NCBI GenBank assembly: GCA_001805445.1
Contig: MHGF01000034.1
Coordinates: forward strand, 33,929 to 97,928
Length of the DNA stretch: 64,000 bases
Source of the DNA: Omnitrophica WOR_2 bacterium GWF2_43_52
GTDB lineage: Bacteria; Omnitrophota; Gorgyraeia; Gygaellales; UBA12090
Direction: 5' to 3'
Both the position numbers and the translations under genes were made by a program. This document shows, piece by piece, positions 3,077-46,765 of this stretch. Position 1 is the first letter of the stretch; each line of letters opens with the position of its first letter. The notes beneath the pieces were generated by a model, which saw nothing but the letters and a program-made list of their open reading frames with translations, ran no database searches and had not been told where the DNA came from.

Positions 3077-3242
3077 GAAAGGCTCCTTAACCAAAAGTAC
3101 TATTATTAATAGTTTTTAAATAGAATAAATAGTATTGGTAGTAATGGGGTTTCGCTTCTGTTGAAAAACGTAAGGTTTACCCACACCTATATACAACAAA
3201 ACTGGAAAATTATCAACAAGAATCTTTGTATTAGCTGTGGAT

Positions 3243-4574
3243 TTACTGTTTAAGGAGTTGCATAATTTTTTCAATGTCATGCCTTATTTTTGAGTCTTTT
3301 TCTTTACACGTTTTTATTTTGTTATAGGAATGAAGCACTGTCGTATGGTCCTTGCCGCCAAAAAAACCGCCTATTTCCGGAAAAGAAAAACTGGTCAGCT
3401 CGCGGCAGAAATACATGGCGACCTGGCGCGCCAAAACGATATTTTTATCCCTTTTGCTGCCTTTTAAGTCCTGGAGGCCAAAATGATAAAAATCGCTTAC
3501 CTGCTTTTGAATTAACTCAATGGTAATCGTTTTGGTGTTTTCTTTAAGCTGGTCCTTTAATACCTCTTTTGCTAATGCCAGGGTTATGGGTTTATTTTCT
3601 AAGAGCGAATACGCGAGCACCCGGATTAACGCGCCCTCAAGCTCCCGGATATTGGATTTAAGCGTTTGGGCGATAAAAAAGATAACCTCGTCGGGAATTG
3701 TGGTTGATTCATGCTCAATTTTTTTCTTTAAAATCGCGACTCTGGTTTCAAAATCCGGAGGCTGGACATCGGTAATCAGCCCCCAACCGAAACGCGAAAC
3801 GAGGCGCTCTTCAAGGTTAGATATATCTTTCGGCGTGCGGTCAGAGCAGATAATAATCTGTTTATGGGCGTCATGCAAAGCGTTAAAGGTATGGAAGAAT
3901 TCTTCCTGAGTAGCTTCCTTGCCGGCGATAAAATGGATATCGTCAATTACCAAGACATCAATAGTGCGGTATTTCTGGCGGAAACGGTTGGTTGAATGAT
4001 GTTGGATAGCGTCAATAAGCTCATTGGTGAATTTTTCAGAGGTGATATAGCATATTTTCATGTTTTGGCCTTCACGCTTTAAAATAGCGTGGCAGATTGC
4101 CTGCATCAGGTGCGTTTTGCCTAATCCTACGCCGCCATAAATGAAAAGAGGGTTATATGTCTTTGCGGGAGCTTCGCTCACGGCAATAGCCGCGGCATGT
4201 GAAAAACGGTTAGAAGGGCCAACCACGAAGTTCTCAAAGGTATAGCGCGGATTTAAATTTATAGAAGACGCGTTTTTTTCAGAAGGAGCGCTTTTAACAG
4301 AAGATGAAAGTTCCGCCTTAGGAGCAGGACGGCATAAGACCGAGAATTCAATCTGAATCCCCTTGGGGGTAAATCTGTTTAAGGCGTCTTCGATTAACGA
4401 ACGGTAATGTTTCTTTACCCAGTCTTTGGAAAATTCATCCGGCGCGCCTAAAACCAGAGTGTCAGAATTCGACTCTCTGGCTTCTAATCTATTGATCCAG
4501 GCTTCGCAGGCAGCTTCTCCGATGTTTTTTGAAAGAACCTCTTTTGCCTTTACCCAAGATTCTACAAGACTCAT
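3243..4574 (-). CDS. dnaA: chromosomal replication initiator DnaA
   Basis: MSLVESW... (compare E. coli MSLSLWQQ), Walker A GGVGLGKTHLMQAI, AAA+ and a C-terminal DNA-binding domain. The ORF track extends to a GTG at 4586, but the ATG at 4574 fits DnaA N-termini. Confidence 0.9.
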   Translation of the reverse strand: MSLVESWVKAKEVLSKNIGEAACEAWINRLEARESNSDTLVLGAPDEFSKDWVKKHYRSLIEDALNRFTPKGIQIEFSVLCRPAPKAELSSSVKSAPSEKNASSINLNPRYTFENFVVGPSNRFSHAAAIAVSEAPAKTYNPLFIYGGVGLGKTHLMQAICHAILKREGQNMKICYITSEKFTNELIDAIQHHSTNRFRQKYRTIDVLVIDDIHFIAGKEATQEEFFHTFNALHDAHKQIIICSDRTPKDISNLEERLVSRFGWGLITDVQPPDFETRVAILKKKIEHESTTIPDEVIFFIAQTLKSNIRELEGALIRVLAYSLLENKPITLALAKEVLKDQLKENTKTITIELIQKQVSDFYHFGLQDLKGSKRDKNIVLARQVAMYFCRELTSFSFPEIGGFFGGKDHTTVLHSYNKIKTCKEKDSKIRHDIEKIMQLLKQ

Positions 4575-8974: not shown

Positions 8975-9415
8975 TTATTGTTCTCTCCAGCTCCAGGCTG
9001 CTTGAATATCGTTTGCAGTATCAATATTAGGAGTCTCGATGTTGGTAATTTGTAGGCTAATTTGTCTTTCGGCTATCGGGTTAGCCGCGGCATCTAAAGT
9101 CTGTCCTGCCGAAATAATGTTCCTATTGACGCCACCAAGAGTATTTACAGTATAGCCATATCTTCCACTGCCAAAGTTTTGCCATGGTGAGTTAAAAGGG
9201 AACAGGCCTCCGGGATTATTCCTGATCCAAATTTTAGCCTCTTCAATTCCAGCCTGCGCCAAATACAAGGCAATCAGCCCGTCCCTGTCAGATGAGCGGG
9301 TGCGTAGCTCCGATTCCCACATTGAAGCAAGCCCTGAGCCTAAAATAGCAAAGACAGCTGTAACAAAGAGGATAAAAATCATGGCCTGGCTTTTTACATT
9401 GCTAAATTGTTTCAT
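8975..9415 (-). CDS. PilX-like minor pilin / pseudopilin (N-terminal hydrophobic segment without canonical G|FTLIE)
   Basis: MKQFSNVKSQAMIFILFVTAVFAILGSG... Its N-terminal region is paralogous to that of the 31488..32597 product. Confidence 0.45.
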   Translation of the reverse strand: MKQFSNVKSQAMIFILFVTAVFAILGSGLASMWESELRTRSSDRDGLIALYLAQAGIEEAKIWIRNNPGGLFPFNSPWQNFGSGRYGYTVNTLGGVNRNIISAGQTLDAAANPIAERQISLQITNIETPNIDTANDIQAAWSWREQ

Positions 9416-9425
9416 TGTTAAATTG

Positions 9426-9797
9426 CTACACAGTTAACCGATCATTAGTAAATTTAATCAAGGAGTTGACTTCTTTAGGTAATCTCTCTAGTTCGCCAGA
9501 GATATGCAGATATTCGTTGTTTCCCAGCAATTTTCTTTTATTTGCTTTTTCCGCCCAATCCACGCTTTCCTCTATTGAACCATAACTGTAGCGATAGAAA
9601 TTAATCTTATCCTTCTTAAAATATCTCCCAAAACCTTCCGCGATATTAGCTGAGATAGAATCGACTGCTTTAACCAGTTGTCTACCCACGGTATCTTTAG
9701 CAAAATAATCCCATTTAATCACTATTCTCCAGATATAATTAGATAAATCAAAAGCAATTCTATAGGAACTCAAGTCTTTTAGCCCCAGATATTTCAT
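9426..9797 (-). CDS. four-helix-bundle protein (TIGR02436 / 23S rRNA IVS protein / Avd-like family)
   Basis: ...RQLVKAVDSISANIAEGFGRYFKKDKINFYRYSYGSIEES... carries the S(I/V).ANIAEG and GS..E signatures of the family; 123 aa. Confidence 0.7.
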   Translation of the reverse strand: MKYLGLKDLSSYRIAFDLSNYIWRIVIKWDYFAKDTVGRQLVKAVDSISANIAEGFGRYFKKDKINFYRYSYGSIEESVDWAEKANKRKLLGNNEYLHISGELERLPKEVNSLIKFTNDRLTV

Positions 9798-9827
9798 AAC
9801 AATTTAACCTTTTGACAATTTAGCAAT

Positions 9828-10418
9828 TTAATTCCTCGGCCTCACCTGCGTGCGCAGGGTGTAATCGCGGTTTTCCCTGCCGATCGGCAGCGTTGGTTGT
9901 GGGCGGACGGTGAGCTCAATAGTATACAATCCTCCTCCGGCATCGGTAAAAAGGGCGTTGCCGCTGGGATTAGGAAGGACAATAAAATTTGCTAATTCTT
10001 CCCAAGCGCTCCAGGCGCTCCAAAGAGGCCCCGGAGGGCCGGTTCTGGTTCTTTGTCTCCTTTGTATCTGCGCAGTCGCCCCTGCGGGCCTTCGAAATTG
10101 TACCTGAATATCTCCAATATCAACGTCATTGTCACCGTCAGAATCTCTGCCGAGCTGTATGCCGTTACCTACGAGGATAATCTGAGTTTGTGCCCATGCA
10201 GGAGCAGCGCTTACAGTGGCGTGTCTTACCTCGTTTGCCATAAATTCCATTGCCCAACGGGCATTCTGGACTAAATCAAGGGTGTTTCTTTGTTTGCGCC
10301 AGGCCTGTTGTACGGAGGAAAATATGCCGCTGGCTCCCGCCATAACCAATCCAAGGACGGCAATGGCGACTAATACTTCAAGTAAGGTAAAACCCTTTTC
10401 ATTGCTACATTGTTTCAT
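9828..10418 (-). CDS. type IV prepilin-like minor pilin
   Basis: MKQCSNEKG|FTLLEVLVAIAVLGLV is a class III signal with Glu at +5; 196 aa. Confidence 0.75.
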   Translation of the reverse strand: MKQCSNEKGFTLLEVLVAIAVLGLVMAGASGIFSSVQQAWRKQRNTLDLVQNARWAMEFMANEVRHATVSAAPAWAQTQIILVGNGIQLGRDSDGDNDVDIGDIQVQFRRPAGATAQIQRRQRTRTGPPGPLWSAWSAWEELANFIVLPNPSGNALFTDAGGGLYTIELTVRPQPTLPIGRENRDYTLRTQVRPRN

Positions 10419-10458
10419 GGCTAAATTGCTAAGCCTGTTAACAGTTTGACCGTTTGTT

Positions 10459-10902: not shown

Positions 10903-10954
10903 GGTTAAAATGCTATAAGCAATTTAGCAATTGAGCAGTTTGACAGTTTAAGGC

Positions 10955-11479
10955 TTATTGTACCCTCACATAGCCGGTGTTGTTAAAAACCTGCACAGTT
11001 CTGGTTTTGCCTTGGGCGTTGAGCGTAATGGTTGTGGTGCCAGCGCTTGAGGCGTTTCCTTGAGGAAAAAGAAAAGAGAATTGCGTCAAAGGGAGTACTG
11101 ATACTAAATCAATTCCTGCGCTTAATGTTCGCCGTTTTATTTCTTCATTGGCATCAGGCGCGCTATTCGCGTTTAGATCGTCGTAAATGGCATAGCTTTC
11201 GCTTGAGGTATCAAAAACCACAATCTGATTTCGGTGTTTAGCTACTGCCATCTGGCGCATCCAGCAGAGGTCAGCGGCAATTGACCGGGCATCAAGCGTA
11301 AGCCTGTTTCCAGTAAGAGAAGAAAATGAAACCATGCTTAAGGCGCTGAGTGTGGCGATAATGGCAATGACAACCATGAGCTCTATTAGGGTAAACCCCG
11401 TTGGAAACCCTATCTTCTTTGCGGGTCGCCCTGTAGTTTCGAACGGGGTAAAGCTGGTTATATAGTTACATTGTTTCAT
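10955..11479 (-). CDS. type IV prepilin-like protein (long leader)
   Basis: ...GFPTG|FTLIELMVVIAIIATL; 174 aa. Confidence 0.7.
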   Translation of the reverse strand: MKQCNYITSFTPFETTGRPAKKIGFPTGFTLIELMVVIAIIATLSALSMVSFSSLTGNRLTLDARSIAADLCWMRQMAVAKHRNQIVVFDTSSESYAIYDDLNANSAPDANEEIKRRTLSAGIDLVSVLPLTQFSFLFPQGNASSAGTTTITLNAQGKTRTVQVFNNTGYVRVQ

Positions 11480-11508
11480 GGCTACATTGTTAAAACAAAA
11501 GCACCTTT

Positions 11509-20018: not shown

Positions 20019-21251
20019 CTAGCCTCCTCCTTTCATTACCGAAATCATTTCCCAGAGCGGCAGGAATATCGCAAGGCACATGGTCATAACAACGATACCG
20101 AGCGTCGCGGTCATAATCGGCTCAATCAAACCGGTGAGGCCTTTAACCGCGGCTTTGACTTCCAGGCTAAAATACTCGCATACCGAATCAAGCATCGTTG
20201 GTAACGATCCGCTTCTTTCGCCGACGGAAATCATGAATCCGACGATGCGGGGGAAATATTTGCTGCTAAGTACCGCCGTGGAAATGCCTTTCCCGTCAGC
20301 CAGGGCCTGTTTCATTGTGGCAATTTCCTGGGATAAGACCACATTACCGATAGTCAGGCCGACGATATCCATGGTTTTGAGTACCGGCAGGCCCGCTTGG
20401 TAAAGGACGCTCAGCATTGAAGTGAAACGCTGCATCGTAATTTTGGTGTAAATTTCACCGATCAGGGGAGTTTTAAATTTAAGGCCGTCCCACCAAAACC
20501 GGCCTTTTTTGGTATTGATATGATGGTTGAACATAAAGAAGCCGCCGATACAGGAAGGGATAAGAAGATACCAATAGTGCTTCATAATGGTGCTGATAAG
20601 GATCATAATCTGGGTCGGCAGGGGAAGTTTCATCTTAGCGTCAATATAAATTTTAGCAAACTGCGGAACGACAAAAATAGAAAGGACAAATACCGCTATC
20701 ACCAAGGCAATCATAACCATAATGGGATAACGCATCGCCTCATTGATTTTGGCGCGGGTTTCAAAATCATCTTCAAGCATACGCGAAAGCTTGGCAAGGA
20801 CGGTTTCCAGGACGCCCGCGCTTTCTCCGGCGACAATGGTATTGACGTAAAGTTCGTTAAAGACATTAGGATGGCGCATCATTGCCTGGGAAAGGCTAAT
20901 GCCGCCTTTGACTTCGTTGACAATATTTTGGAGCGCCTGTTTTAAGGCAATGTCCTCGGTTTGCTCGGATAATACCGTCAGCCCGTCGACGATAGGAATG
21001 CCGGCCTTGATAATGGTTGAGAATTGGCGGGAAAATATAATAATTGATTGGGTGCTTGCTTTCCCCGCCTTTTTTACCGCTGTTTCGGAAACCTGCTTGG
21101 TTTTTACGGTTTTAAAGCTTATGCTTATACTGATAGGCATGTACCCTATCTTGGCAAGATGGGTGGTTACTTCCATTTCGTTGGCAGCTTCTAATTCGCC
21201 TTTTACCAGTTTACCGCCTGCGTCTGCCGCTTTATAAAGGTAGAGGGGCAT
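20019..21251 (-). CDS. PilC/GspF/MshG-family platform protein (second copy)
   Basis: Two T2SS-F repeats, 410 aa; paralog of the 7764..8972 product. Confidence 0.85.
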   Translation of the reverse strand: MPLYLYKAADAGGKLVKGELEAANEMEVTTHLAKIGYMPISISISFKTVKTKQVSETAVKKAGKASTQSIIIFSRQFSTIIKAGIPIVDGLTVLSEQTEDIALKQALQNIVNEVKGGISLSQAMMRHPNVFNELYVNTIVAGESAGVLETVLAKLSRMLEDDFETRAKINEAMRYPIMVMIALVIAVFVLSIFVVPQFAKIYIDAKMKLPLPTQIMILISTIMKHYWYLLIPSCIGGFFMFNHHINTKKGRFWWDGLKFKTPLIGEIYTKITMQRFTSMLSVLYQAGLPVLKTMDIVGLTIGNVVLSQEIATMKQALADGKGISTAVLSSKYFPRIVGFMISVGERSGSLPTMLDSVCEYFSLEVKAAVKGLTGLIEPIMTATLGIVVMTMCLAIFLPLWEMISVMKGGG

Positions 21252-21315
21252 GTATAGTGTGTAAGTTTATAAGTGTAAAGTGAGTAAGTATATAGGTATA
21301 AAGTGTGTGCATTTT

Positions 21316-28866: not shown

Positions 28867-30654
28867 TTAATACGTTAAGAGGCAGACAATTTCAAAGCTT
28901 GCCGTGGGAATTGCCGAATACATATCCTGTTTGGTTTTTTCCGGGACCTGGCGCACCTGCTCAAAAAACGGGGAGTCTTCAAGGGTCAGCACATACTGTG
29001 ATAGTTCCAGGTCCACGATGGTATATTTCGCCGATATTTTTCCCTCAATATGCATTTCCTTGGTGTTGACAACGGTTATTTTTGAAAAGACGACTTCCTC
29101 GGGCGTTATCGTGCCTAATTCCTTAAACGCCCCCCACCACAGCGGCTGATGGCTGCTGGTTTGCTCTAAAAGCTTTTTTCTCTGCTCGAGTTTTATATAG
29201 GTGTCGCGGTACTCGCGCGCCTTTGCCACAATGGGTTCTAATTGGCGCAACTGGATATTAATGCTATTAACGGAAGCCTTGTGTTTACGCGCATTCTTGA
29301 GAAGAATCCCGTAATACAACATGCTTAAGCCAAGGATTATCGGAACGACGATTTTTAATATGGTAATAAGAAAAAAGGCTTGCTGCTCTATTTTTTCCTT
29401 GAGCGGGAGAAGATTGATTTTAGCCCCTTTCCCCAGGCAAAGGCCAAAAGCAGCCGCCAGATGCGGCACTGCCTGCTCCATCATTAATTCCTGCCTGTAG
29501 ATGCCGGTATCTTTCCAGCCCTTGACCGCCTTTAAGGCATCGAGATTCTCAATCTTTTTTAATTCCTTTAAATTATCGAGAAAAAATTTATTGATATTCT
29601 TAAGGCGCGATGAGCCTCCGGTAAGAAATAATTCCTCTATCGCGCTCGCCTTGAAGGTAGAGGTGTAATAGGCGAGGGTACGGTTAATTTCCATGACCAG
29701 CCGTTCTAAAAGCGAGCGGAGCATTGATGAAATTTGTTCGCCTAGTATGGTGCCGAAATCGGTGAGGAATTCTATCTTTGCTTCTTCCGCGGAAGGGATG
29801 CCGCATTGGCGTTTAATCTTTTCCGCGTCTTCCTGGCTTATGGTGACGCTGCCGCTGGGAGTAGTTATGGTCCTGGCCAAGGCGCCGGTAAGATGGTCTC
29901 CGCCGACGGGTATTTCACGGGAAAAACTCAAGATACCGCCTTTATAGAAATTAAGCGTAGAGCTGTTTGCCCCCATATCCAGAATGGCTATGGATTTTTG
30001 GGGATTGATTTTTACGCAGTGAGAAAGCAGGTTACCGATGGCATCAGGGATAACGCAGAGGCCAAGCGGCCTTAGCCGCATGTCTTTTAAAAGCTGGACC
30101 TGTTCCTCAAGGGTGAAACGGTCGCAGGCAATACAGGTTACCTGGAGAATGGTGATGCCCTTTTCATCGCGCTGCTGGCCGGTAACAAAAAAATCAAAAG
30201 AAATCGTATCTAAATTAAGCTGAAACGGCAGGCGTTTTTTTAACTCCATACTGACCGCCCCGCGCAGGTCTTTTTTGTTTAACAAAGGGACATTGAGCGA
30301 AAAGATAAAAACGCCTTTACCCCAGATGGCTAAACGGCCAAGAGTGGTTTTTATCCGCGAGTTTTTAATGAATTCCTTGATAAATTCCTGAATAATCCTT
30401 TTTTTCTCGGCAGGATTGTCTTTTATCGAGCGGGGGATCGCGCGGGTAATATAATTGGCAATCAGGTAGCCTTTCGCGGTTTTCTGAAGCTGGACTATTT
30501 TAAAGGTATTTGAGCCGATATCAATACCGATGATATTCTGGGTCGCGCTAAAAAAGCTTGTGATGGGGGAAAGAATCGCTCCGAGAGAAAATTTTACCGC
30601 GGGCTTAGCGGCGGACGGATGGGCTTTTGCTTCCGTGGCATTTGGGCTATCCAT
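28867..30654 (-). CDS. PilM-like actin-fold ATPase fused to PilN-like domain (MshI-like)
   Basis: IIGIDIGSNTFKIVQLQ (PilM), then TM FFLITILKIVVPIILGLSMLYYGILL and a periplasmic domain; 595 aa. Confidence 0.7.
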   Translation of the reverse strand: MDSPNATEAKAHPSAAKPAVKFSLGAILSPITSFFSATQNIIGIDIGSNTFKIVQLQKTAKGYLIANYITRAIPRSIKDNPAEKKRIIQEFIKEFIKNSRIKTTLGRLAIWGKGVFIFSLNVPLLNKKDLRGAVSMELKKRLPFQLNLDTISFDFFVTGQQRDEKGITILQVTCIACDRFTLEEQVQLLKDMRLRPLGLCVIPDAIGNLLSHCVKINPQKSIAILDMGANSSTLNFYKGGILSFSREIPVGGDHLTGALARTITTPSGSVTISQEDAEKIKRQCGIPSAEEAKIEFLTDFGTILGEQISSMLRSLLERLVMEINRTLAYYTSTFKASAIEELFLTGGSSRLKNINKFFLDNLKELKKIENLDALKAVKGWKDTGIYRQELMMEQAVPHLAAAFGLCLGKGAKINLLPLKEKIEQQAFFLITILKIVVPIILGLSMLYYGILLKNARKHKASVNSINIQLRQLEPIVAKAREYRDTYIKLEQRKKLLEQTSSHQPLWWGAFKELGTITPEEVVFSKITVVNTKEMHIEGKISAKYTIVDLELSQYVLTLEDSPFFEQVRQVPEKTKQDMYSAIPTASFEIVCLLTY

Positions 30655-31487: not shown

Positions 31488-32597
31488 TTATTGTTCCTGC
31501 CAGGTTGTTGACGAGAAATTCCCGGAAATGCCCATGCCGGTAGTGTCTACATACCTATCGGCATATTTAAGTTCAATATTGCCTCTGAGGTAAATAGCGG
31601 CTCCCATCAGGCCGCCTTCATTGTGTATACAATTAAAATCTATCGTTCCGTATTGCGTATAAATCAGGCCAGTAAAGTCGCGGCTTGAAGAAAGGTCCCC
31701 ATCTGGCGCAGAAGAAATAATGTTTCCGTTTTGTGTAGCCAAATTCGGAAAAGTTTCCGGCCCACCTTGTTTATTATGGGCAGAGATACTCATTTTTCCA
31801 ATTCCAATAATGGTAATGTTTCCTTCGGCAACGATACTTGTTTTTGAAAAAGTGATTTTATTGTTTCGATTAGTGCCGGTATCAATAGTGACATTTCCCG
31901 TAACGTAATAAAATTTGTTGTTATAACTGTTCTCTGCAAAAGTAGAAGAGCCGTTAGTGTAGTTGCATTGATTGCCGCAGGTTTTAGCATAATCTTCAAA
32001 ATACGTCATATTAATCGCGGGGATGCTGGTTGGCCCGACAATAGCAGTTGCATTTGAAGGCGGAGGAAAGGTCCAATCTTCGTCTTCATTGATCGTTGCA
32101 TCACTATCATCCCCTTCAAAATTTGGCGAGGCGATAGTTCCGTTGACGCTTATAGAATAACCGCTGGTATTATTCCAGTCAAACCTGTCTCCTCCTGCCG
32201 CGACGTTACTAAAGCCTCCCTGGGTAAGCGTAAGGTTTACCTGCCGCAGCGCGCGGTAGTTTGCCTGAGAAGGAACGTAACCTGTTGTAATAACAGTGAG
32301 TGCGTTGCCTGAGGAGGTGCAGTTACAGGCGTATTGCCCTGGCCCAAATGTGTGAGTTACATTGGTAATATTCGTGCAGTTAAAATTCCGGGAGAGTTGG
32401 TTTTGCGCCCATTGCGCTCCGGCCTCGGCTATATTGAGTGCTTGTTCAGAATTAAGGGTACGCAGGTTTATTTCAAAATCGCCGGACTCAAGATTGAGTA
32501 ATGCCCAGCCCAGAATGCTAAAAACCAGCATCGCGAAGATGACGATGATCAGGGCGGCCGCTTTATTATTACCGTGTATATTGCTAAATTGATTCAT
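31488..32597 (-). CDS. PilX-like minor pilin, Asn-rich with many N-x-S/T sequons
   Basis: MNQFSNIHGNNKAAALIIVIFAMLVFSILGWALL is paralogous to the N-terminus of the 8975..9415 product. About 15 NxS/T sequons in 369 aa. Confidence 0.45.
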   Translation of the reverse strand: MNQFSNIHGNNKAAALIIVIFAMLVFSILGWALLNLESGDFEINLRTLNSEQALNIAEAGAQWAQNQLSRNFNCTNITNVTHTFGPGQYACNCTSSGNALTVITTGYVPSQANYRALRQVNLTLTQGGFSNVAAGGDRFDWNNTSGYSISVNGTIASPNFEGDDSDATINEDEDWTFPPPSNATAIVGPTSIPAINMTYFEDYAKTCGNQCNYTNGSSTFAENSYNNKFYYVTGNVTIDTGTNRNNKITFSKTSIVAEGNITIIGIGKMSISAHNKQGGPETFPNLATQNGNIISSAPDGDLSSSRDFTGLIYTQYGTIDFNCIHNEGGLMGAAIYLRGNIELKYADRYVDTTGMGISGNFSSTTWQEQ

Positions 32598-32639
32598 TGT
32601 TAAATTGTTAAACGATCATTGGTAAATCTAATAACCTTA

Positions 32640-32745
32640 ATTAATTGTTTGCCCACAGTATCCTTGGCAAAATAATTCCATTTAAGCATAGTTTCCCGCA
32701 TATAATTTGATAAATTAAAAGCAATTATATGCGTACGTATATCTT
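32640..32745 (-). pseudogene. truncated remnant (N-terminal ~35 codons) of a four-helix-bundle gene paralogous to 9426..9797
   Basis: Nucleotide collinearity between 32640-32745 and 9690-9800 (ttgtttgcccacagtatccttggcaaaataattccattt.. versus ttgtctacccacggtatctttagcaaaataatcccattt..). Minus-frame translation ..LKDIRTHIIAFNLSNYMRETMLKWNYFAKDTVGKQLIK, then a stop. Confidence 0.5.
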
Positions 32746-32999
32746 TTAACTCCAGCAGTTTAGCAATTTAACCATGTAACAATTTAATTCCATCACTTTA
32801 ACTCCAGCAGTTTAACAATGTAGCCATGTAACAATTTAATTCCGTCACTTTAACTCCAGCAGTTTAACAATGTAGCCATGTAACAATTTAATTCCGTCAC
32901 TTTAACTCCAACAGTTTAACAATGTAACCATGTAACAATTTAATTCCGTCACTTTAACTCCAGCAGTTTAACAATGTAGCCATTTAACAATTTAATTAA
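32741..32999. repeat. tandem array, 5 copies of a 52-53-bp unit carrying the pilin 5' motif
   Basis: Unit ctttaactccagcagtttaacaatgtagccatgtaacaatttaattccgtca starts at 32745, 32798, 32850, 32902 and 32954. It contains catggctacattgttaaa (minus strand), identical to the start-codon region of the 10955..11479 gene. Confidence 0.8.
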
Positions 33000-33553
33000 A
33001 GGTTTCTCGGATACACCTTTGTTTTTATTGTCTTAGACTGCGTGCCCGACTGAAACGTCGCGTTAATATCTATCCGATAGACATCGGTCGCGGTAGGCGC
33101 GACAAGCGGCGTCGTAATAAGCTGGTTAGTTTTATTGTAATAACTAAAGGTGAAATTGTTTACCCCTGCGGCAAGGATGTCGGTATTACGCAGTAAATTA
33201 TTGCCTGATACTTGATAGGAAATTGACGTGCTCTTGGTGTCAGTAAACTGTAATTGCCAGGCGCTGGCGGCTGCAAGCGAGTCGGCATCCCGCATCTGCC
33301 GTATTTCCCTTGACATTCTCATCAGCGCCAGCCTTCCCTGCGAAATCACTTCATTACGAAAGGAAAGGAAACGCCAGAGATTAACGGTTTCTCGGATATA
33401 GAGCGACGAGATGCCGGTTAAGATTCCCACGATAACGATTACCGTAATCAGTTCAATCAGGGTTACGGCTTTGGTTGAGTTTTTTTTACTCGTTTTCTTT
33501 TGTGTTGTCATATAAAGATACAGAGAGTACTGAAAAAATACCTTTTTACACAA
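32996..33553 (-). CDS. type IV prepilin-like minor pilin (FimT/PilW-like)
   Basis: ...NSTKA|VTLIELITVIVIVGILTG. The likely start is the internal MTTQKK at about 33511. Confidence 0.65.
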   Translation of the reverse strand: MCKKVFFQYSLYLYMTTQKKTSKKNSTKAVTLIELITVIVIVGILTGISSLYIRETVNLWRFLSFRNEVISQGRLALMRMSREIRQMRDADSLAAASAWQLQFTDTKSTSISYQVSGNNLLRNTDILAAGVNNFTFSYYNKTNQLITTPLVAPTATDVYRIDINATFQSGTQSKTIKTKVYPRNL

Positions 33554-43274: not shown

Positions 43275-44060
43275 ATGAATTTCACTTTGATTAATGTGGT
43301 AATGGGCGCGTATCTTTTTGCCGGCATAGGCTTTTTTTTATACACAAACTTCCAAAAAATAATTTTTAAAAGTTTCGCAATCGCTTTATTATCAATAGGT
43401 TTTGCTTCTCATACCGGATTCCTCATTCAACGCTGGATAAGCGCGGGCCATTTTCCTATTATCGGCTTATATGAATCCCTGCTTTTTTTTAGCTGGTCAA
43501 CGGTGTGTGTGTTTTTCATCCTCTTAAGAAATTTCAAGCTTGAGTTTTTGGCTATGCCCGTGAGTATCGGCGCCGCCCTGATTGTAGGATATACCTCAAT
43601 TCTTGACAAAACCCTAAAGCCTCTTATGCCGGCATTAAAGAGTAATTGGATTGTTATCCATGTGGTAAGCTATTTTCTCGGCTATGCTTCGGTCGCGATT
43701 TCTTGTATTGTCAGTATCAAATACCTTGTCAATGCCCGTAAAGCTTCTCCTGATTCGTTGACAGCTTTAGATACGCTTAGTTATCGTCTCATCGCCTTTG
43801 CCTTTCCTTTTTTGACTATCGGGCTTACTACCGGAGCGGTATGGGCAAAGACCGCCTGGGGCAGCTATTGGAGCTGGGACCCTAAAGAGACCTGGGCGCT
43901 GATTACTTGGTGCGTCTACGCGGCGTATTTACATTTGCGCCTGCTTAAAAACTGGCATGGCCGTCGAGGCGCCTATATTAATATCATAGGGTTTTTTTGC
44001 GTTCTTTTTACCTTTATCGGGGTAAATTATCTTTTTAAAGGCTTGCACAGTTATTTATAG
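43275..44060 (+). CDS. ccsA: cytochrome c assembly protein CcsA/ResC
   Basis: W-rich haem-handling motif WAKTAWGSYWSWDPKETWAL plus conserved His residues. Confidence 0.8.
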   Translation: MNFTLINVVMGAYLFAGIGFFLYTNFQKIIFKSFAIALLSIGFASHTGFLIQRWISAGHFPIIGLYESLLFFSWSTVCVFFILLRNFKLEFLAMPVSIGAALIVGYTSILDKTLKPLMPALKSNWIVIHVVSYFLGYASVAISCIVSIKYLVNARKASPDSLTALDTLSYRLIAFAFPFLTIGLTTGAVWAKTAWGSYWSWDPKETWALITWCVYAAYLHLRLLKNWHGRRGAYINIIGFFCVLFTFIGVNYLFKGLHSYL

Positions 44061-44062
44061 CT

Positions 44063-44120
44063 TTCAGCCTTCAGCCTTCAGCTTTCAGCTGATTGCTGAT
44101 AGCTGATAGCTGAAGGCTTA
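44063..44120 (+). terminator. GC-rich hairpin after ccsA (gccttcagc...gctgaaggc) containing repeated TCAGCTGA units
   Basis: agctttcagccttcagccttcagctttcagctgattgctgatagctgatagctgaaggc. The 22-mer ctttcagctgattgctgatagc recurs at 47507-47528. Confidence 0.4.
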
Positions 44121-44125
44121 TTTCT

Positions 44126-46765
44126 ATGCGTCTTAGGACAAAATTCCTTCTTACGTTTCTGGCCATTTCCATCATTCCCCTTATTTTCATTAGTGCCTTA
44201 AGCTTTTCTTACGCGAAAAAGTCGTTAGAAGCGACTGCCTTAAAAGGCCTGAATATTGTGGCTCTGGCCAAGAAGGCCGAAGTCCTGGAGTATTTAAGCG
44301 GTAAAAAAGGCAGGACCATTGATTTTGCCTCCGACGGTTTTATCAGAGATCAGGCAGAAGCTATCTTTAAGAGCGCCGCCGCAGAGAAAACACGCTTAAG
44401 CAGGTCTTTAAATGAGCATCTTAGGGTTAATAAAAAACCTCTCGATGAGGAAATTTTAGAAATCCGCGTCCTTGATATAACCGGTAAGATTATCGGCGAT
44501 AGCGAGGGCGAGGCCCTACTAGGGCTTGCCACAGGCAAGACGCAAGCCTATTTTCTTGAAGGGCAGCATACGGCCTATATTCAGGATAGCGGTATTTTTA
44601 TGCATTGGGGCGCGGAAGAAGAAATTATTGCCATTGGCACGCCTTTAAAAAGCAGAACGACGAATACACTCATCGGAGTCTTGGTTAATTTTTATACCTT
44701 AGCCAATGTTCAGGATGTCCTTCTGGGAATAAAAGGCCACCGCTGGGATAAACAGAGTATTGTCGGCGGCCAAGAAACCACCATGGATATATTCTTGGTG
44801 AATCAGCAAGGCCTGCTTTTAACCCCTTCCAAAAAGCTCGATACCTATAGGCCGTTAAAAACGAAAATAATCACCGAGCCTGTTCTCCAGGCAACGGCAG
44901 ATTTTGGCGTTCTTAATAGATCGTGGGTAGATATGCGGGGAAACAATGTATTGGGCGCATCGGTGCTTTTAGATATTGAGGAGGACTGGAAGTGGCTTTT
45001 AATCATAGAGCAAGACCAAAAAGAGGTACTTTTGCCGGTGTATGAATTAAGGAATTTTTTGGCAACGGCAGCGGTCATTATATGGCTTTTTGTAGGGTTC
45101 ATCGCGGTAGCAATAGCTGAATCAATTACGGCGCCGGTACGCAAGCTTACCAGGGTTGCCGATAGGATTAGCAGGGGTGAAGCAGGATTACGCATAGAGA
45201 ATACGTCAAAGGATGAAATCGGGACACTCGCCTCTTCCTTTAACCGGATGGTAGAGATCCGCCAAAGTGTCGAAGACGAGTTGAGGCTGGCTAAGACGCG
45301 CATCAGCGAAGAAAAAACCAAGTGCGAGCTTGTCCTGGCGAGTATCGGCGAGGGTATGATTGTCATTAGCCAAGATGCCAAGGTGATGATGATGAATAGC
45401 GAAGCCGAGCATATGTTCGGCTGGGAGCTGATTGAGTTGGTAGGAAAAAATTTTGGCGAAGCGCTTATTTGTGAAGATGAAAAAGGCAACCCGGTTCCCG
45501 AAGCAGAGAGAATTATGGCCCGTCCGCTTGAGGATAATAAAACTATCCATGTCAACGCGTACTATTATCGAAGAGATGCGACGAGGTTTCCTGTTTCCGT
45601 GACGGCCTCCCCTATCCTTTTTGAAAGCAAGGTCATCGGGGCAATCGGGATATTCCGCGATATTACCAAAGAGAAAGAAATAGACAGAATGAAAACTGAT
45701 TTTATCTCGACGGTTTCGCATGAAATCCGCACACCCCTGACGACGATACGCGAGGGGGTTTCTCAGGCGCTTGACGGCCTTTTGGGAGGTATTACCGAAA
45801 AACAAAGAGAAATATTTTCCATTGTCCTTGAGGATTCCGACCGTCTCAAGCGTATTATTGACAGCCTCTTGGATATAGCGAAAATAGAAGCCGGGAAAGT
45901 AGAATTAAAAAAAGAGTTAGTCGATATTGCCGCCGTAGCTAAAACCGTAGCCGCTGCCTTCGGCCTGCAGGCGCAAGAGAAGAAACTGCAAATCCGCACG
46001 CATTTTTCTAAGCCAAAAATCAAGGCATACGTTGATAGAGATAGGATTAACCAGGTTTTTATAAATCTGGTGGGAAATGCCCTTAAATTCACGGAAAATG
46101 GCAGTATTACTATTTCAGTAGAGGATACCGCCGCGTCGATAGAATGTTCGGTTGCCGATACGGGGAAAGGCATTGCCAAGGAGGACCAGCCGAAATTATT
46201 CAGTAAATTTCAGCAGTTTGGCCGGGCGCACGGCCCGGGAGAAAAAGGAACCGGCCTGGGGCTTTCCATTTCTAAGGGCATCGTTGAACTGCATAAAGGA
46301 AAGATTTGGGCTGAGTCCCAACCGCGTAAAGGGACAAAAATCAGTTTCACGATTCCGCGCTATAGCCAAGAACAGCTCTTTAAAGAATATGTGGCAGGCG
46401 GGATAAAAAAGGCTATGCGCCAGAACAATGTTTTATCTCTGGTGCTTTTTAGCCTTTGGGATGTATCGGATACGCCCTTAAGCGATAGTGACGCGCTGGC
46501 CGATAATTTAACGGATTTTATCAGAAAAAAGATCCATTGGGACTCTGAGGCCATTGTGGAAAGCGGCAATCGTATTCTTATGCTTTTTCCCGGGGTTACA
46601 AAAGAAAACGCGCGGGTGATCGCCGGAAAGATCCGTAACATATTCGTCCACTACACGGCACGGCAAGGCGGGGAAAAACATATAACAATTTCTTTTAAAG
46701 TCATTACCTATCCTCAAGACGGCTCGCACGAAGAAGGCTTGGTCTTGGGGATATTGAATATATAA
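44126..46765 (+). CDS. sensor histidine kinase with periplasmic Cache-like domain, HAMP, PAS, HisKA, HATPase and a ~130-aa C-terminal domain of unknown type
   Basis: H-box SHEIRTPLTTI; G-box GTGLGLSISKGIVELHKG. The N-terminal sensor region is paralogous to that of the MCP at 50694..52799 (KKGRTIDFASDGFIRD versus [16 protein letters not shown]). Confidence 0.85.
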   Translation: MRLRTKFLLTFLAISIIPLIFISALSFSYAKKSLEATALKGLNIVALAKKAEVLEYLSGKKGRTIDFASDGFIRDQAEAIFKSAAAEKTRLSRSLNEHLRVNKKPLDEEILEIRVLDITGKIIGDSEGEALLGLATGKTQAYFLEGQHTAYIQDSGIFMHWGAEEEIIAIGTPLKSRTTNTLIGVLVNFYTLANVQDVLLGIKGHRWDKQSIVGGQETTMDIFLVNQQGLLLTPSKKLDTYRPLKTKIITEPVLQATADFGVLNRSWVDMRGNNVLGASVLLDIEEDWKWLLIIEQDQKEVLLPVYELRNFLATAAVIIWLFVGFIAVAIAESITAPVRKLTRVADRISRGEAGLRIENTSKDEIGTLASSFNRMVEIRQSVEDELRLAKTRISEEKTKCELVLASIGEGMIVISQDAKVMMMNSEAEHMFGWELIELVGKNFGEALICEDEKGNPVPEAERIMARPLEDNKTIHVNAYYYRRDATRFPVSVTASPILFESKVIGAIGIFRDITKEKEIDRMKTDFISTVSHEIRTPLTTIREGVSQALDGLLGGITEKQREIFSIVLEDSDRLKRIIDSLLDIAKIEAGKVELKKELVDIAAVAKTVAAAFGLQAQEKKLQIRTHFSKPKIKAYVDRDRINQVFINLVGNALKFTENGSITISVEDTAASIECSVADTGKGIAKEDQPKLFSKFQQFGRAHGPGEKGTGLGLSISKGIVELHKGKIWAESQPRKGTKISFTIPRYSQEQLFKEYVAGGIKKAMRQNNVLSLVLFSLWDVSDTPLSDSDALADNLTDFIRKKIHWDSEAIVESGNRILMLFPGVTKENARVIAGKIRNIFVHYTARQGGEKHITISFKVITYPQDGSHEEGLVLGILNI

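What the first reader, a model, noticed from the sequence alone, without database searches (positions are those of the whole stretch)
32741..32999. Five tandem 52-bp repeats that amplify the pilin 5' motif in the promoter region of the PilX-like gene
Unit ctttaactccagcagtttaacaatgtagccatgtaacaatttaattccgtca repeats at 32745, 32798, 32850, 32902 and 32954. The first copy is the most divergent and carries the tagcaatttaacc version seen at gene starts. Each unit contains catggctacattgttaaa on the minus strand. This is identical to the start-codon region of the prepilin gene at 10955..11479 and includes an ATG, so it is an amplified copy of the regulatory or initiator module. The array abuts the stop of the upstream prepilin gene and the degenerate four-helix-bundle fragment. 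Copy-number change by slipped-strand mispairing would alter spacing or occupancy of whatever binds the AACAAT repeats. That makes this a candidate phase-variation switch for the downstream minor-pilin genes.
Basis: seen in the sequence. Interest (0 to 1): 0.55.

Follow-up and report, generated by a model that had tools for sequence, protein, structure and literature searches.

The report
Amplified hairpin arm of decayed element
The five 52-bp repeats are real, but they are tandem copies of one end of a decayed hairpin-flanked insertion element related to the intervening sequences of 23S rRNA, not an amplified pilin promoter module; the copy number differs (3, 4 or 5) between otherwise identical assemblies.

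Summary
There are 4.9 copies of a 52-bp unit at 32745..32997. They fill most of the 398-bp gap between a minus-strand pseudopilin gene and the PilX-like gene.

The shared "pilin 5' motif" is an 8-nt-periodic repeat, (TARCAATN)n. In the array it lies inverted relative to the flanking genes.

The same repeat, in the same left-inverted/right-direct arrangement, brackets an intact four-helix-bundle gene (PF05635/TIGR02436, the S23p family) in the window's other pilin cluster. It also brackets seven of the eight homologues of that gene examined in other phyla. The eighth, a truncated copy, keeps only its right arm.

The array unit consists of the pseudopilin 3' end, the left arm, and the first ~17 nt of the four-helix-bundle ORF. 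The ORF next to the array is a pseudogene with a ~215-nt deletion and no ATG. A 42%-identical orthologous locus has no insert at this junction.

I conclude that the array is a tandemly amplified left arm of a decayed IVS-like palindromic element.

Sixteen independent assemblies with near-identical flanks carry 5, 4 or 3 units, so slippage is plausible, although short-read collapse is not excluded.

No promoter was found in the array. Predicted pairing of the units with the PilX start region saturates at 2-3 units. A phase switch is therefore unsupported.

The parts
32745..32997 (-). Array of 4.9 tandem 52-bp units, starting at 32745, 32797, 32849, 32901 and 32953. I number the units U1 to U5 along the minus-strand transcript. 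U1 touches the pseudopilin stop. U5 (32745..) touches the ORF remnant and is the most ancestral-looking copy. U3 and U4 are identical.
32762..32991 (-). The five inverted-arm cores, one per unit. On the + strand these are ARCMAT clusters at 32762-32783, 32814-32835, 32866-32887, 32918-32939 and 32970-32991. In the mRNA each reads ATTGTTACATGGYTACATTGTTAAA.
   Evidence: 0.02 such clusters expected per shuffled window., I1-I12: 29-33-nt arms, 77-86% complementary to 32577-32613.
32600..32755 (-). Decayed four-helix-bundle (S23p-family) ORF remnant, LELKDIRTHIIAFNLSNYMRETMLKWNYFAKDTVGKQLIKVIRFTNDRLTI*. It has no start codon and lacks about 215 nt (roughly codons 44-112) relative to the intact paralogue at 9426..9797.
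   Evidence: 84% identity over 229 aligned nt with the cluster-1 element. The remnant is too short for a Pfam or NCBIfam hit.
32577..32613 (-). Right (direct) arm of the element, GTTTAACAATTTAACA-ATG-AATCAATTTAGCAAT. It contains the start codon (32595..32597) and the first 6 codons (MNQFSN) of the PilX-like gene.
31488..32597 (-). PilX-like minor pilin gene (369 aa) downstream of the array. The identical protein occurs in all 16 assemblies.
32996..33553 (-). Pseudopilin (PilW-like, N_methyl motif) gene whose stop codon abuts unit U1.
9426..9797 (-). Intact four-helix-bundle gene (123 aa) in the paralogous minor-pilin cluster. It lies between pseudopilin 9828..10418 and PilX-like 8975..9415 and serves as the reference copy of the element.
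   Evidence: PF05635, E = 1.8e-20, 73.6 bits against a cutoff of 33.8. TIGR02436, 77.4 bits against a cutoff of 24.
9798..9833 (-). Left (inverted) arm of the intact element, AATTAAATTGCTAAATTGTCAAAAGGTTAAATTGTT. It starts inside the pseudopilin stop codon (..CCGAGGAATTAA) and ends at the ATG of the four-helix-bundle gene. It is homologous to the array unit.
   Evidence: It pairs with the right arm in the minimum-free-energy fold.
9384..9428 (-). Right (direct) arm of the intact element, TAGCAATTTAACA-ATG-AAACAATTTAGCAATG. It begins with the stop codon of the four-helix-bundle gene and contains the start codon of PilX-like gene 8975..9415.
10401..10430 (-). Direct arm spanning the start of pseudopilin 9828..10418 (leader MKQCSNEKG|FTLLE). 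A short inverted partner lies just upstream, so this is an ORF-less hairpin form.
10903..10949 (-). ORF-less hairpin, AAACTGTCAAACTGCTCAATTGCTAAATTGCT-TAT-AGCATTTTAACC, immediately before ATG 10902.
11470..11494 (-). Solo direct arm, TTTAACAATGTAGCC-ATG-AAACAATG, at the start of GspH-like gene 10955..11479.

Best explanation
The array is the tandemly amplified left terminal arm of a decayed palindromic insertion element. The element is of the type that carries a four-helix-bundle (S23p/PF05635) ORF between inverted, 8-nt-periodic arms. That architecture matches the ORF-bearing intervening sequences (IVS) of 23S rRNA, but here the element sits between two cistrons of a minor-pilin operon.

Shown:
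- An intact copy lies at the same junction (PilW-like | PilX-like) in the window's other pilin cluster.
- The 52-bp unit consists of the last ~13 nt of the pseudopilin gene, the left arm, and the first ~17 nt of the four-helix-bundle ORF.
- The adjacent ORF is a pseudogene.
- A distant orthologous locus has no insert at this junction.

Inferred:
- The array arose by slippage or unequal exchange between the short direct repeats GGAATTAAA (at the pseudopilin stop) and GGAGTTAAA (at ORF codons 5-7).
- Copy number still drifts by slippage (5, 4 and 3 units are seen).
- The array is co-transcribed with the operon.
- In the mRNA, any unit can pair with the right arm that holds the PilX-like start codon. 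This would mildly occlude the start codon or create double-stranded RNA, a possible RNase III substrate.
- That effect saturates at 2-3 units.

The array is therefore best read as a hypervariable by-product of element decay, not a tuned switch.
For: 1. Architecture in cis. Cluster 1 reads pseudopilin stop - (NATTGYTA)n - ATG of the four-helix-bundle gene 9426..9797 - stop - (TARCAATN)n containing the PilX-like ATG. RNAfold pairs the two arms around the ORF, with z = -2.07.

2. Homology. The cluster-2 region aligns with the cluster-1 element at 84% identity over 229 nt. It has a ~215-nt internal deletion and has lost the ATG.

3. Unit register. U1 starts at the real gene end (CCGAGAAACCTTTAA). 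U2-U5 start with GTGAYGGAATTAA, which resembles the cluster-1 gene end GTGAGGCCGAGGAATTAA. Every unit ends with CTGCTGGAGTTAAA, the 5' end of the ORF.

4. Generality.
- The four-helix-bundle protein has 3928 homologues at E < 1e-10, and the best 120 listed are 67-98% identical.
- Seven of the eight homologues examined have the same inverted and direct octamer-periodic arms. Three of these were found through the motif (L050, L064, L072) and four were found through the protein alone (L129, L130, L133, L135).
- The eighth, L096, is a 67-aa ORF remnant with a direct arm after its stop and no left arm.
- Arm variants co-vary within a locus.
- Arm complementarity has z = -2.3 to -13.4 in the eight intact elements, that is those seven plus window cluster 1.
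- The proteins are 57-84% identical to the window copy across phyla.

5. Polarity and MITE-like forms. Of 127 direct arrays in 120 foreign loci, 37 have an inverted cluster upstream and 2 have one downstream. The loops are 9-48 nt (29 cases) or 370-400 nt (4 cases, the size of the ORF).

6. It is an insertion.
- The PilW|PilX junction in L128 (42% identical PilX) has overlapping genes and no insert.
- L127 (64% identical) has a different four-helix-bundle subfamily with different arms at the same junction.

7. Copy-number variation. There are 5 units in 9 assemblies, 4 in 5 assemblies and 3 in 2 assemblies. Flanks differ by 0-1 SNP per kb in most.

8. Precedent. The Coxiella IVS has an S23p ORF between a 28-bp terminal inverted-repeat stem that RNase III cleaves. 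It has tandem heptamers upstream of the ORF start that vary (2 or 3) between strains, and its ORF is decaying (PMC4990558).
Against: - The fold of the whole array region is no more stable than shuffled sequence (z = -0.35).
- In the eight ORF-bearing elements, the sense strand pairs no better than the antisense strand. RNA-level selection on the arms is therefore not demonstrated, and the arms could be DNA-level terminal repeats.
- In L135 the arms keep the CATTG/CAATG core but have C.A mismatches.
- No transposase, target-site duplication or presence/absence polymorphism at one locus was found, so mobility is inferred only from distribution.
- In this 64-kb window all arm clusters lie in the two minor-pilin clusters. 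The 'general mobile element' reading does not explain this.
- The 3- and 4-unit alleles come mostly from MEGAHIT k141 short-read assemblies and short contigs, so they could be repeat collapse.
Confidence: 0.7

Rival explanations
1. First reader's model. The array is an amplified regulatory or initiator module in the promoter of the PilX-like gene. Slipped-strand changes in unit number switch or tune expression of the downstream minor pilins (phase variation).
For: The array sits directly upstream of the PilX-like gene. Unit number differs (5, 4, 3) among assemblies with a 100% identical PilX protein and almost no flank SNPs. In this window the motif occurs only in minor-pilin clusters.
Against: The units are inverted relative to the gene-start motif. 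No sigma-70-like promoter lies in the array on the gene strand, and no terminator lies upstream, so read-through from the operon is expected. However, Omnitrophota promoters are uncharacterised. The motif is the arm of a cross-phylum four-helix-bundle element, and none of 127 foreign arrays precedes a recognisable prepilin. Modelled accessibility of the start region is the same for 3-7 units (0.31-0.34). Relatives manage without the array.
Confidence: 0.12
2. Protein-binding array. The 8-nt-periodic arms are recognition sites for a multimeric protein. The most obvious candidate is the pentameric four-helix-bundle protein still encoded at 9426..9797. The five extra arms would then act in trans as a sink, or in cis as a loading platform, on DNA or RNA. 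This affects processing or mobility and does not depend on base-pairing.
For: The CAATG/CATTG core and the 8-nt period are conserved across phyla even where arm complementarity is imperfect (L135). Different four-helix-bundle subfamilies carry different periodic arms (L009, L069, L075, L127). Arms typically hold 3-5 or more octamers. S23p of Xanthomonas is a homopentameric toroid (as cited in PMC4990558), and the homologous Avd is an accessory protein of diversity-generating retroelements (PMC10053308; that Avd binds nucleic acid and the reverse transcriptase is from my own knowledge).
Against: There is no direct evidence of binding. Co-inheritance of an ORF and its arms in one element lineage would give the same subfamily-specific pattern. 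Most octamer arrays (about 70%) have no nearby four-helix-bundle gene.
Confidence: 0.15
3. The array is a fixed, neutral relic with 5 units. The 4- and 3-unit versions are short-read assembly collapses, so there is no biological copy-number variation at all.
For: U3 and U4 are identical. Resolving them needs reads or k-mers spanning about 120 nt. Six of the seven shorter alleles come from one series of MEGAHIT k141 assemblies (ERZ272547xx to ERZ272548xx), and five of the seven shorter alleles lie on contigs of 1.7-2.6 kb. Flanks are identical, as expected if the underlying genomes are the same.
Against: The 3-unit allele (U1-U3-U5) also lacks U2, which has two diagnostic SNPs. Collapse of identical units alone does not produce this. 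MEGAHIT k127 assemblies recover 5 units (L005, L141, L142). One 4-unit allele lies on a 54.8-kb contig and another on an 89.6-kb contig with a different upstream gene context (L140, L004).
Confidence: 0.3

Closest known systems
ORF-bearing intervening sequences (IVS) of 23S rRNA (Leptospira, Coxiella burnetii, Brucella; S23p ORF)
   Same: A ~120-aa four-helix-bundle ORF (S23p/PF05635) sits in the loop of a long hairpin made by terminal inverted repeats. Short tandem repeats lie immediately upstream of the ORF start, and their number varies between strains (Coxiella heptamer GACAGAT, 2 or 3 copies). The ORF is prone to decay, and the element is regarded as selfish (PMC4990558).
   Different: The element here is not in rRNA. 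It lies between protein-coding cistrons of a pilin operon. Its arms are 8-nt-periodic arrays, not a unique stem. The right arm contains the start codon of the next gene. Here the whole left arm plus both of its junctions (52 bp) is amplified five-fold. RNase III cleavage is untested.
Palindromic miniature insertion elements co-transcribed into mRNAs (Neisseria Correia/NEMIS elements, enterobacterial ERIC/IRU) - recalled from my own knowledge
   Same: These are inverted-repeat elements inserted in intergenic regions of operons. They occur in full-length and shortened forms, and they fold into hairpins in the transcript that can be processed by RNase III and alter expression of the neighbouring gene. 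The ORF-less hairpins at 10903-10949 and 10401-10430, and the 29 short-loop cases in other genomes, look like this.
   Different: Those families are genus-restricted and have no associated ORF. The present arms are shared across phyla, and a fraction enclose a conserved ORF. No target-site duplication was identified here.
Tandem-repeat contingency (phase or graded variation) loci upstream of adhesin or pilus genes, e.g. the 7-bp repeats upstream of Haemophilus influenzae hmw1A/hmw2A - recalled from my own knowledge
   Same: A tandem repeat lies upstream of a surface-appendage gene, and its copy number differs between near-clonal genomes.
   Different: The unit is 52 bp (long for slippage-driven switching). 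It is derived from a mobile-element end. There is no promoter evidence, and no predicted dose-response between 3 and 5 units.
Avd, the accessory four-helix-bundle protein of diversity-generating retroelements
   Same: Same protein superfamily. PF05635 resembles Avd (PMC10053308).
   Different: No reverse transcriptase and no template/variable repeat pair lies near either copy in the window (ORF list; no such domains among the neighbours examined).

Membership tests
S23p / 23S rRNA-intervening-sequence protein family (PF05635, TIGR02436) | Protein matches the family profile above the curated cutoff | tested here: met
   For 9426..9797: PF05635, 73.6 bits (cutoff 33.8). TIGR02436, 77.4 bits (cutoff 24). 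The remnant next to the array is too short to score but is 84% identical in DNA to that gene.
23S rRNA intervening sequence (IVS) | Inserted in helix 25 or 45 of a 23S rRNA gene | tested here: not met
   Both copies lie between protein-coding pilin genes. Rfam finds no rRNA or any other RNA family there.
23S rRNA intervening sequence (IVS) | Terminal inverted repeats that form a stem enclosing the element | tested here: met
   Cluster-1 element: the minimum-free-energy fold pairs the arms around the ORF, z = -2.07. Duplex energy is -42 kcal/mol, z = -5.4. Array region: each unit is 77-86% complementary to the right arm, but the whole-region fold has z = -0.35.
23S rRNA intervening sequence (IVS) | Excision of the stem-loop by RNase III | not testable with these tools
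   This needs RNA-end mapping or an in vitro cleavage assay.
Phase-variable tandem-repeat (contingency) locus | Repeat number varies within or between closely related populations | tested here: inconclusive
   5, 4 or 3 units occur in 9, 5 and 2 assemblies with near-identical flanks. Short-read collapse is not excluded, and no read-level data were available.
Phase-variable tandem-repeat (contingency) locus | Repeat lies within a promoter (spacer or operator) or a reading frame, so that unit number changes expression | tested here: not met
   No sigma-70-like promoter lies in the array on the gene strand. No ORF runs through the array, because the unit has TAA in several frames and 52 is not a multiple of 3. 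Modelled start-site accessibility is flat from 3 to 7 units. Caveat: promoter consensus for Omnitrophota is unknown.
MITE-like palindromic insertion element | Terminal inverted repeats plus a target-site duplication, and filled versus empty sites in related genomes | tested here: inconclusive
   Inverted arms are present. An empty orthologous junction exists in L128, but at 42% protein identity it is too distant to define an insertion point. No target-site duplication was recognised.

The most novel reading that the evidence does not exclude
S23p-type four-helix-bundle genes, with their 8-nt-periodic inverted arms of fixed polarity, are a very large, horizontally spreading family of 'operon IVS' elements. 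They insert at intercistronic junctions of mRNAs, not only in 23S rRNA. The pentameric protein would recognise the octamer arms. Amplified-arm arrays such as this one would then act as hypervariable cis-elements that set how much of the polycistronic pilin mRNA is cleaved or translated past the junction, so controlling tip-pilin (PilX-like) supply.
Probability: 0.12. Interest if true: 0.8.

Novelty: new variant of a known kind. Interest (0 to 1): 0.5.

Why it matters
For this finding, the result removes a tempting but wrong reading, namely a pilin-specific regulatory module amplified into a switch. It replaces that reading with a concrete origin: an amplified end of a decaying selfish element.

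The result also matters more broadly. The function and origin of 23S rRNA intervening sequences and their S23p ORF are still described as unclear more than 25 years after their discovery (PMC4990558, 2016). This window shows the same ORF-in-a-hairpin architecture inside protein-coding operons.

I documented the following features of these elements:
- octamer-periodic arms shared across phyla;
- a fixed arm polarity;
- ORF-less derivatives;
- an intermediate decay stage.

If confirmed by a census, this gives thousands of natural variants for asking what the arms and the protein do. It also warns annotators that 'conserved 5' motifs' at gene starts can be element arms.

Tried and rejected
- **Rfam.** E-value mode over both pilin clusters gave nothing relevant.
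- **Promoter and terminator scan.** There was no promoter-like site in the array on the gene strand, and overall counts were near shuffled expectation.
- **'The direct arm generally donates start or stop codons to neighbouring genes.'** Rejected as a general rule. An ATG in the arm opens an ORF of at least 100 aa in 13% of 116 foreign arrays, against 9% of random windows. A stop in the arm closes an open frame of at least 100 aa in 5%, against 4%. It does hold for several pilin genes in this window.
- **'The motif is generally linked to pilin genes.'** Rejected. None of 127 foreign arrays precedes a recognisable prepilin. L135 is one independent pilin-cluster case.
- **Strand bias of arm pairing (G.U versus A.C) as a test for an RNA stem.** There was no consistent sense advantage in 8 elements, so the test is uninformative.
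- **Adjacency of four-helix-bundle genes to the motif.** Only 8 of the 120 motif-selected loci hold a four-helix-bundle gene, and 4 of those genes touch the motif. Most arrays are therefore ORF-less.
- **phmmer of the four-helix-bundle protein against PDB sequences.** No hit at E <= 0.01.
- **Literature searches.** Searches by repeat sequence and by family names found no description of these arms or of S23p elements in operons. The CRISPR-linked '23S rRNA IVP' mention in PMC10910872 is only a figure-legend abbreviation.
- **The 23-bp tandem repeat at 21251-21308.** It was checked for an inverted partner, and none was found.
- **DNA inversion between the array and the right arm.** All 16 assemblies have the same orientation.
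Full report
**1. The observation**

Tandem Repeats Finder reports one strong array in the window: 32745..32997, period 52, 4.9 copies, 95% matches, no indels. The repeat finder places the copies exactly 52 bp apart.

The array fills most of the 398-bp gap between two minus-strand genes. The upstream gene is a pseudopilin ORF at 32996..33553, whose TAA stop is at 32996-32998. The downstream gene is a 369-aa PilX-like ORF at 31488..32597.

It occurs with one mismatch in two units and with three mismatches in one. It also occurs exactly at 11477..11494. In total there are 9 matches at up to 3 mismatches, against 0.03 expected.

The array is present in 16 independent assemblies, so it is not an assembly artefact.

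**2. What the shared motif is within the window**

I read 60 nt upstream and 30 nt downstream of every minus-strand start codon. The motif is an 8-nt-periodic repeat, TARCAATN. It runs across the start codons of five minor-pilin genes, at 9415, 10418, 10902, 11479 and 32597. It encodes leaders such as MKQFSN and MKQCSN.

In the array, this sense version lies on the + strand. It is therefore inverted relative to the flanking genes. Each unit forms a 29-33-nt inverted repeat, 77-86% complementary, with 32577..32613. That region is the start of the PilX-like gene (I1-I12).

Clusters of the octamer occur in the 64-kb window only at the five array units and at four pilin gene starts. A shuffled window is expected to hold 0.02 such clusters.

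**3. The paralogous pilin cluster gives the key**

In the other cluster, an intact 123-aa gene lies between pseudopilin 9828..10418 and PilX-like 8975..9415. This gene (9426..9797) belongs to the four-helix-bundle family, also called S23p or '23S rRNA intervening sequence protein'. It scores 73.6 bits against PF05635 (cutoff 33.8) and 77.4 bits against TIGR02436 (cutoff 24).

An inverted octamer arm precedes the gene. The arm starts in the pseudopilin stop codon (CCGAGGAATTAA-ATTGCTAAATTG...) and ends at the gene's ATG. A direct arm follows the gene. It starts with the gene's stop codon and contains the PilX-like ATG.

RNAfold pairs the two arms around the whole ORF. The free energy is -109.6 kcal/mol, with z = -2.07 against shuffles.

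**4. Anatomy of the array**

I number the units U1 to U5 along the minus-strand transcript.
- U1 begins with the real pseudopilin end (CCGAGAAACCTTTAA).
- U2-U5 begin with GTGAYGGAATTAA. This resembles the cluster-1 gene end GTGAGGCCGAGGAATTAA.
- All units then carry the inverted arm, ATTGTTACATGGYTACATTGTTAAA.
- All units end with CTGCTGGAGTTAAA. This is the 5' end of a four-helix-bundle ORF.

Downstream of U5 the ORF continues as LELKDIRTHIIAFNLSNYMRETMLKWNYFAKDTVGKQLIKVIRFTNDRLTI*. A gapped alignment with the cluster-1 element gives 84% identity over 229 nt. It also shows a ~215-nt internal deletion and loss of the ATG.

The remnant's stop codon lies 2 nt before the PilX-like ATG, inside the direct arm.

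The unit therefore spans the junction from the gene end, through the left arm, into the ORF start. It is bounded by the near-identical nonamers GGAATTAAA and GGAGTTAAA. I infer that it was amplified by slippage or unequal exchange between those nonamers.

U5 is the unit most like the cluster-1 arm. U3 and U4 are identical, so the amplification is recent.

**5. The motif is not pilin-specific**

I scanned one genome per species for TARCAATNTARCMATGWAWCAAT. I calculated that about 2 matches would be expected by chance. These lie in Patescibacteria, Bacteroidota, uncultured Gammaproteobacteria, Ignavibacteria, Nitrospinota and other groups.

The hits are octamer arrays, and many are paired with an upstream inverted array. 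Of 127 direct arrays, 37 have an inverted cluster within 600 nt upstream and only 2 have one downstream. The loops are 9-48 nt in 29 cases and 370-400 nt in 4 cases. The longer size fits an enclosed ORF of about 123 codons.

The polarity is therefore fixed, with the CATTGTTA-type arm first and the TAACAATG-type arm second. Both ORF-bearing and ORF-less forms exist.

**6. The link to the four-helix-bundle gene**

In the motif-selected loci, four four-helix-bundle genes of the window's subfamily touch the arms.
- L050, L064 and L072 are intact and have both arms.
- L096 is a truncated 67-aa remnant that keeps only a direct arm after its stop.

For an unbiased sample I searched with the protein alone. 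This returned 3928 homologues at E < 1e-10. The best 120 listed are 67-98% identical, almost all 123-131 aa long, and many lie on contigs of about 1 kb.

I fetched four of these with long contigs. All four (L129, L130, L133, L135) have an inverted periodic arm running up to the ATG and a direct arm starting at or just after the stop. Arm variants co-vary within each locus, for example ATGGTTA with TAACCAT in L130, and ACTGCTA with TAGCAGT in L129.

Arm complementarity exceeds shuffles in all eight intact ORF-bearing elements, which are those seven loci plus window cluster 1 (z = -2.3 to -13.4). The proteins are 57-84% identical to the window copy.

The elements sit between co-oriented genes. 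Examples are the two fumarate hydratase subunits (L130), a UPF0102-family gene and a mechanosensitive channel (L133), and a prepilin peptidase and a pilin (L135).

Other four-helix-bundle subfamilies carry different periodic inverted arms (L009, L069, L075, L127).

**7. Evolution of the PilW|PilX junction**

The window organism is named Omnitrophica WOR_2 bacterium GWF2_43_52 by NCBI. Three relatives show different states of the junction.
- **L128 (42% identical PilX):** the two genes overlap and there is no insert.
- **L127 (64% identical):** the junction holds an intact four-helix-bundle gene of another subfamily, 27% identical to the window copy. Its arms are of the GGTTGCGTAA type. The gene has no stop codon and reads through its right arm into PilX, giving a 504-aa fusion call.
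- **A 51% relative (P0003):** its PilX starts with LHTHTPTHLHTYTLTHL, which looks like a translated periodic arm.

The insert is therefore dispensable, and this junction has been occupied repeatedly.

**8. Copy number**

All 16 assemblies carry the identical PilX protein.

| Units | Assemblies | Loci |
|---|---|---|
| 5 | 9 | L001, L002, L003, L005, L006, L141, L142, L143, L149 |
| 4 | 5 | L004, L140, L144, L145, L146 (one of the identical U3/U4 pair missing) |
| 3 | 2 | L147, L148 (U1-U3-U5) |

Unit sequences are otherwise identical. Flanks differ by 0-1 positions per kb in most assemblies.

This is what slippage would give, but it is not proof. Six of the seven shorter alleles come from one series of MEGAHIT k141 assemblies. 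Five of the seven lie on contigs of 1.7-2.6 kb.

Two points argue against pure collapse. The 3-unit allele also lacks U2, which has two diagnostic SNPs. MEGAHIT k127 assemblies recover 5 units.

**9. Function**

On the gene strand the array has no sigma-70-like promoter, and no terminator separates the genes. I therefore infer that it is transcribed as an intercistronic spacer.

The duplex energy between a unit and the right arm ranges from -16.5 to -24.2 kcal/mol. I computed partition functions for constructs with 0-7 units.

| Construct | Mean unpaired probability of the PilX start region (-20..+20) |
|---|---|
| No units | 0.48 |
| Shuffled array | 0.45 ± 0.06 |
| One unit | 0.35 |
| 2-7 units | 0.29-0.34 |

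With three or more units, at least 97% of the pairing of the start region goes to the array. Any cis effect is thus predicted to be mild occlusion. It would already be saturated at the observed copy numbers, and 4 and 5 units are indistinguishable.

The whole-region fold is no better than shuffled sequence (z = -0.35). Sense and antisense arm pairing are equally good across elements. I therefore cannot say whether the arms act as an RNA stem, as DNA terminal repeats, or as protein-binding repeats.

**10. Comparison with what is known**

The closest described system is the ORF-bearing IVS of 23S rRNA. In Coxiella, an S23p ORF sits in a hairpin closed by a 28-bp terminal inverted repeat that RNase III cleaves. 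Tandem heptamers just upstream of the ORF start vary (2 or 3 copies) between strains. The ORF is decaying. The element's origin is debated between a transposition remnant and a mobile element (PMC4990558).

The present element shares the ORF family, the hairpin, the variable short repeats at the ORF's 5' side, and the decay. It fails the defining feature of location in 23S rRNA. It differs in three further ways:
- its arms are octamer-periodic;
- its right arm carries a neighbour's start codon;
- a composite 52-bp unit has been amplified.

Correia-type and ERIC-type palindromic elements are functional analogues for the ORF-less forms. That comparison rests on my own knowledge.

I found no paper describing these arms or S23p elements inside operons in the searchable library. 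This is weak evidence of novelty.

**11. Verdict**

The motif sharing, the abutment to the stop codon and ORF fragment, and the instability are right. The orientation, the promoter status, the pilin specificity and the switch function are not supported.

The array is best explained as a tandemly amplified left arm of a decayed S23p-type IVS-like element. It is hypervariable in length, and its functional consequence is probably small. The wider element family is the more interesting result and deserves a census.

Noticed in passing
L135-L138, about 80-380 nt upstream of the four-helix-bundle gene at 3001..3378: A 78-bp unit (ATAATAAGGAAGGAGGTGAAATAAATATACTGAAAGCATATTTATTTCAACCGACTGACGAAATTGCAAGCTTCGCTT) lies next to the left arm of another four-helix-bundle element, in another organism's pilin cluster. 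It is present in 1, 2, 3 and 2 copies in four samples. This is a second case of a copy-number-variable tandem repeat on the left side of such an element.
   Followed up: partly
L127 92..1606 (protein P0002): In a relative with a 64% identical PilX, a four-helix-bundle ORF of a different subfamily has no stop codon. It reads through its right arm (ACCGCAACCTTACGTAGCCTCACGCAACC...) into the PilX-like gene, and the gene caller reports a 504-aa fusion.
   Followed up: partly
Protein P0003 (no DNA available): A 51%-identical PilX-like protein begins with the periodic peptide LHTHTPTHLHTYTLTHL. This looks like a translated short-period DNA repeat at the same junction.
   Followed up: no
window 32750..33010, minus strand: Each unit contains a 9-codon mini-ORF in mRNA sense (ATG GYT AMA TTG YTA AAC TGY TGG AGT TAA, i.e. 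M[AV][TK]LLNCWS*). No Shine-Dalgarno sequence precedes it. The CATG at its start is palindromic, which is why an ATG is seen on both strands.
   Followed up: no
L004 (ERZ27254744 k141_1534962), from about 1.5 kb upstream of the array: This 4-unit contig diverges completely from the other assemblies about 1479 nt upstream of the pseudopilin stop. It has ATP synthase and MshE/PilZ genes where the others have the GspH-like gene and ComFB-CheR. This is either a strain-level rearrangement or a chimeric contig.
   Followed up: partly
L018, L023, L121 and other Chryseobacterium loci: These loci hold long, pure (TAACAATG)n microsatellite-like arrays of up to about 220 nt, without an inverted partner or a four-helix-bundle gene. 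Their relation to the hairpin elements is unclear.
   Followed up: no
window 21251..21308: A 23-bp tandem repeat (TGTAAAGTGTGTAAGTATATAAG, 2.5 copies) lies directly upstream of the ATG of the 410-aa gene 20019..21251(-). No inverted partner lies within 400 nt.
   Followed up: partly
window 44059..44113: Two adjacent heptamer tandem repeats (AGCTTTC x 4.6, AGCTGAT x 3.9) end 13 nt before the start of the 879-aa ORF 44126..46765(+).
   Followed up: no
window 28867..30654(-): A single 595-aa ORF combines PilM (residues 43-407) and PilN (residues 510-591) domains. It is conserved as a fusion in the relatives L127 and L128.
   Followed up: no
window 9415, 10418, 11479, 32597 (gene starts): Within this window all direct arms coincide with minor-pilin start codons and encode the first residues of the leaders (MKQFSN, MKQCSN, MKQCNY, MNQFSN). 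The pilin in L135 likewise starts MKQWNN inside an arm. This is not general (13% versus 9% background). It may reflect tolerance of cleaved prepilin leaders to such insertions, or gene conversion among pilin 5' ends.
   Followed up: partly
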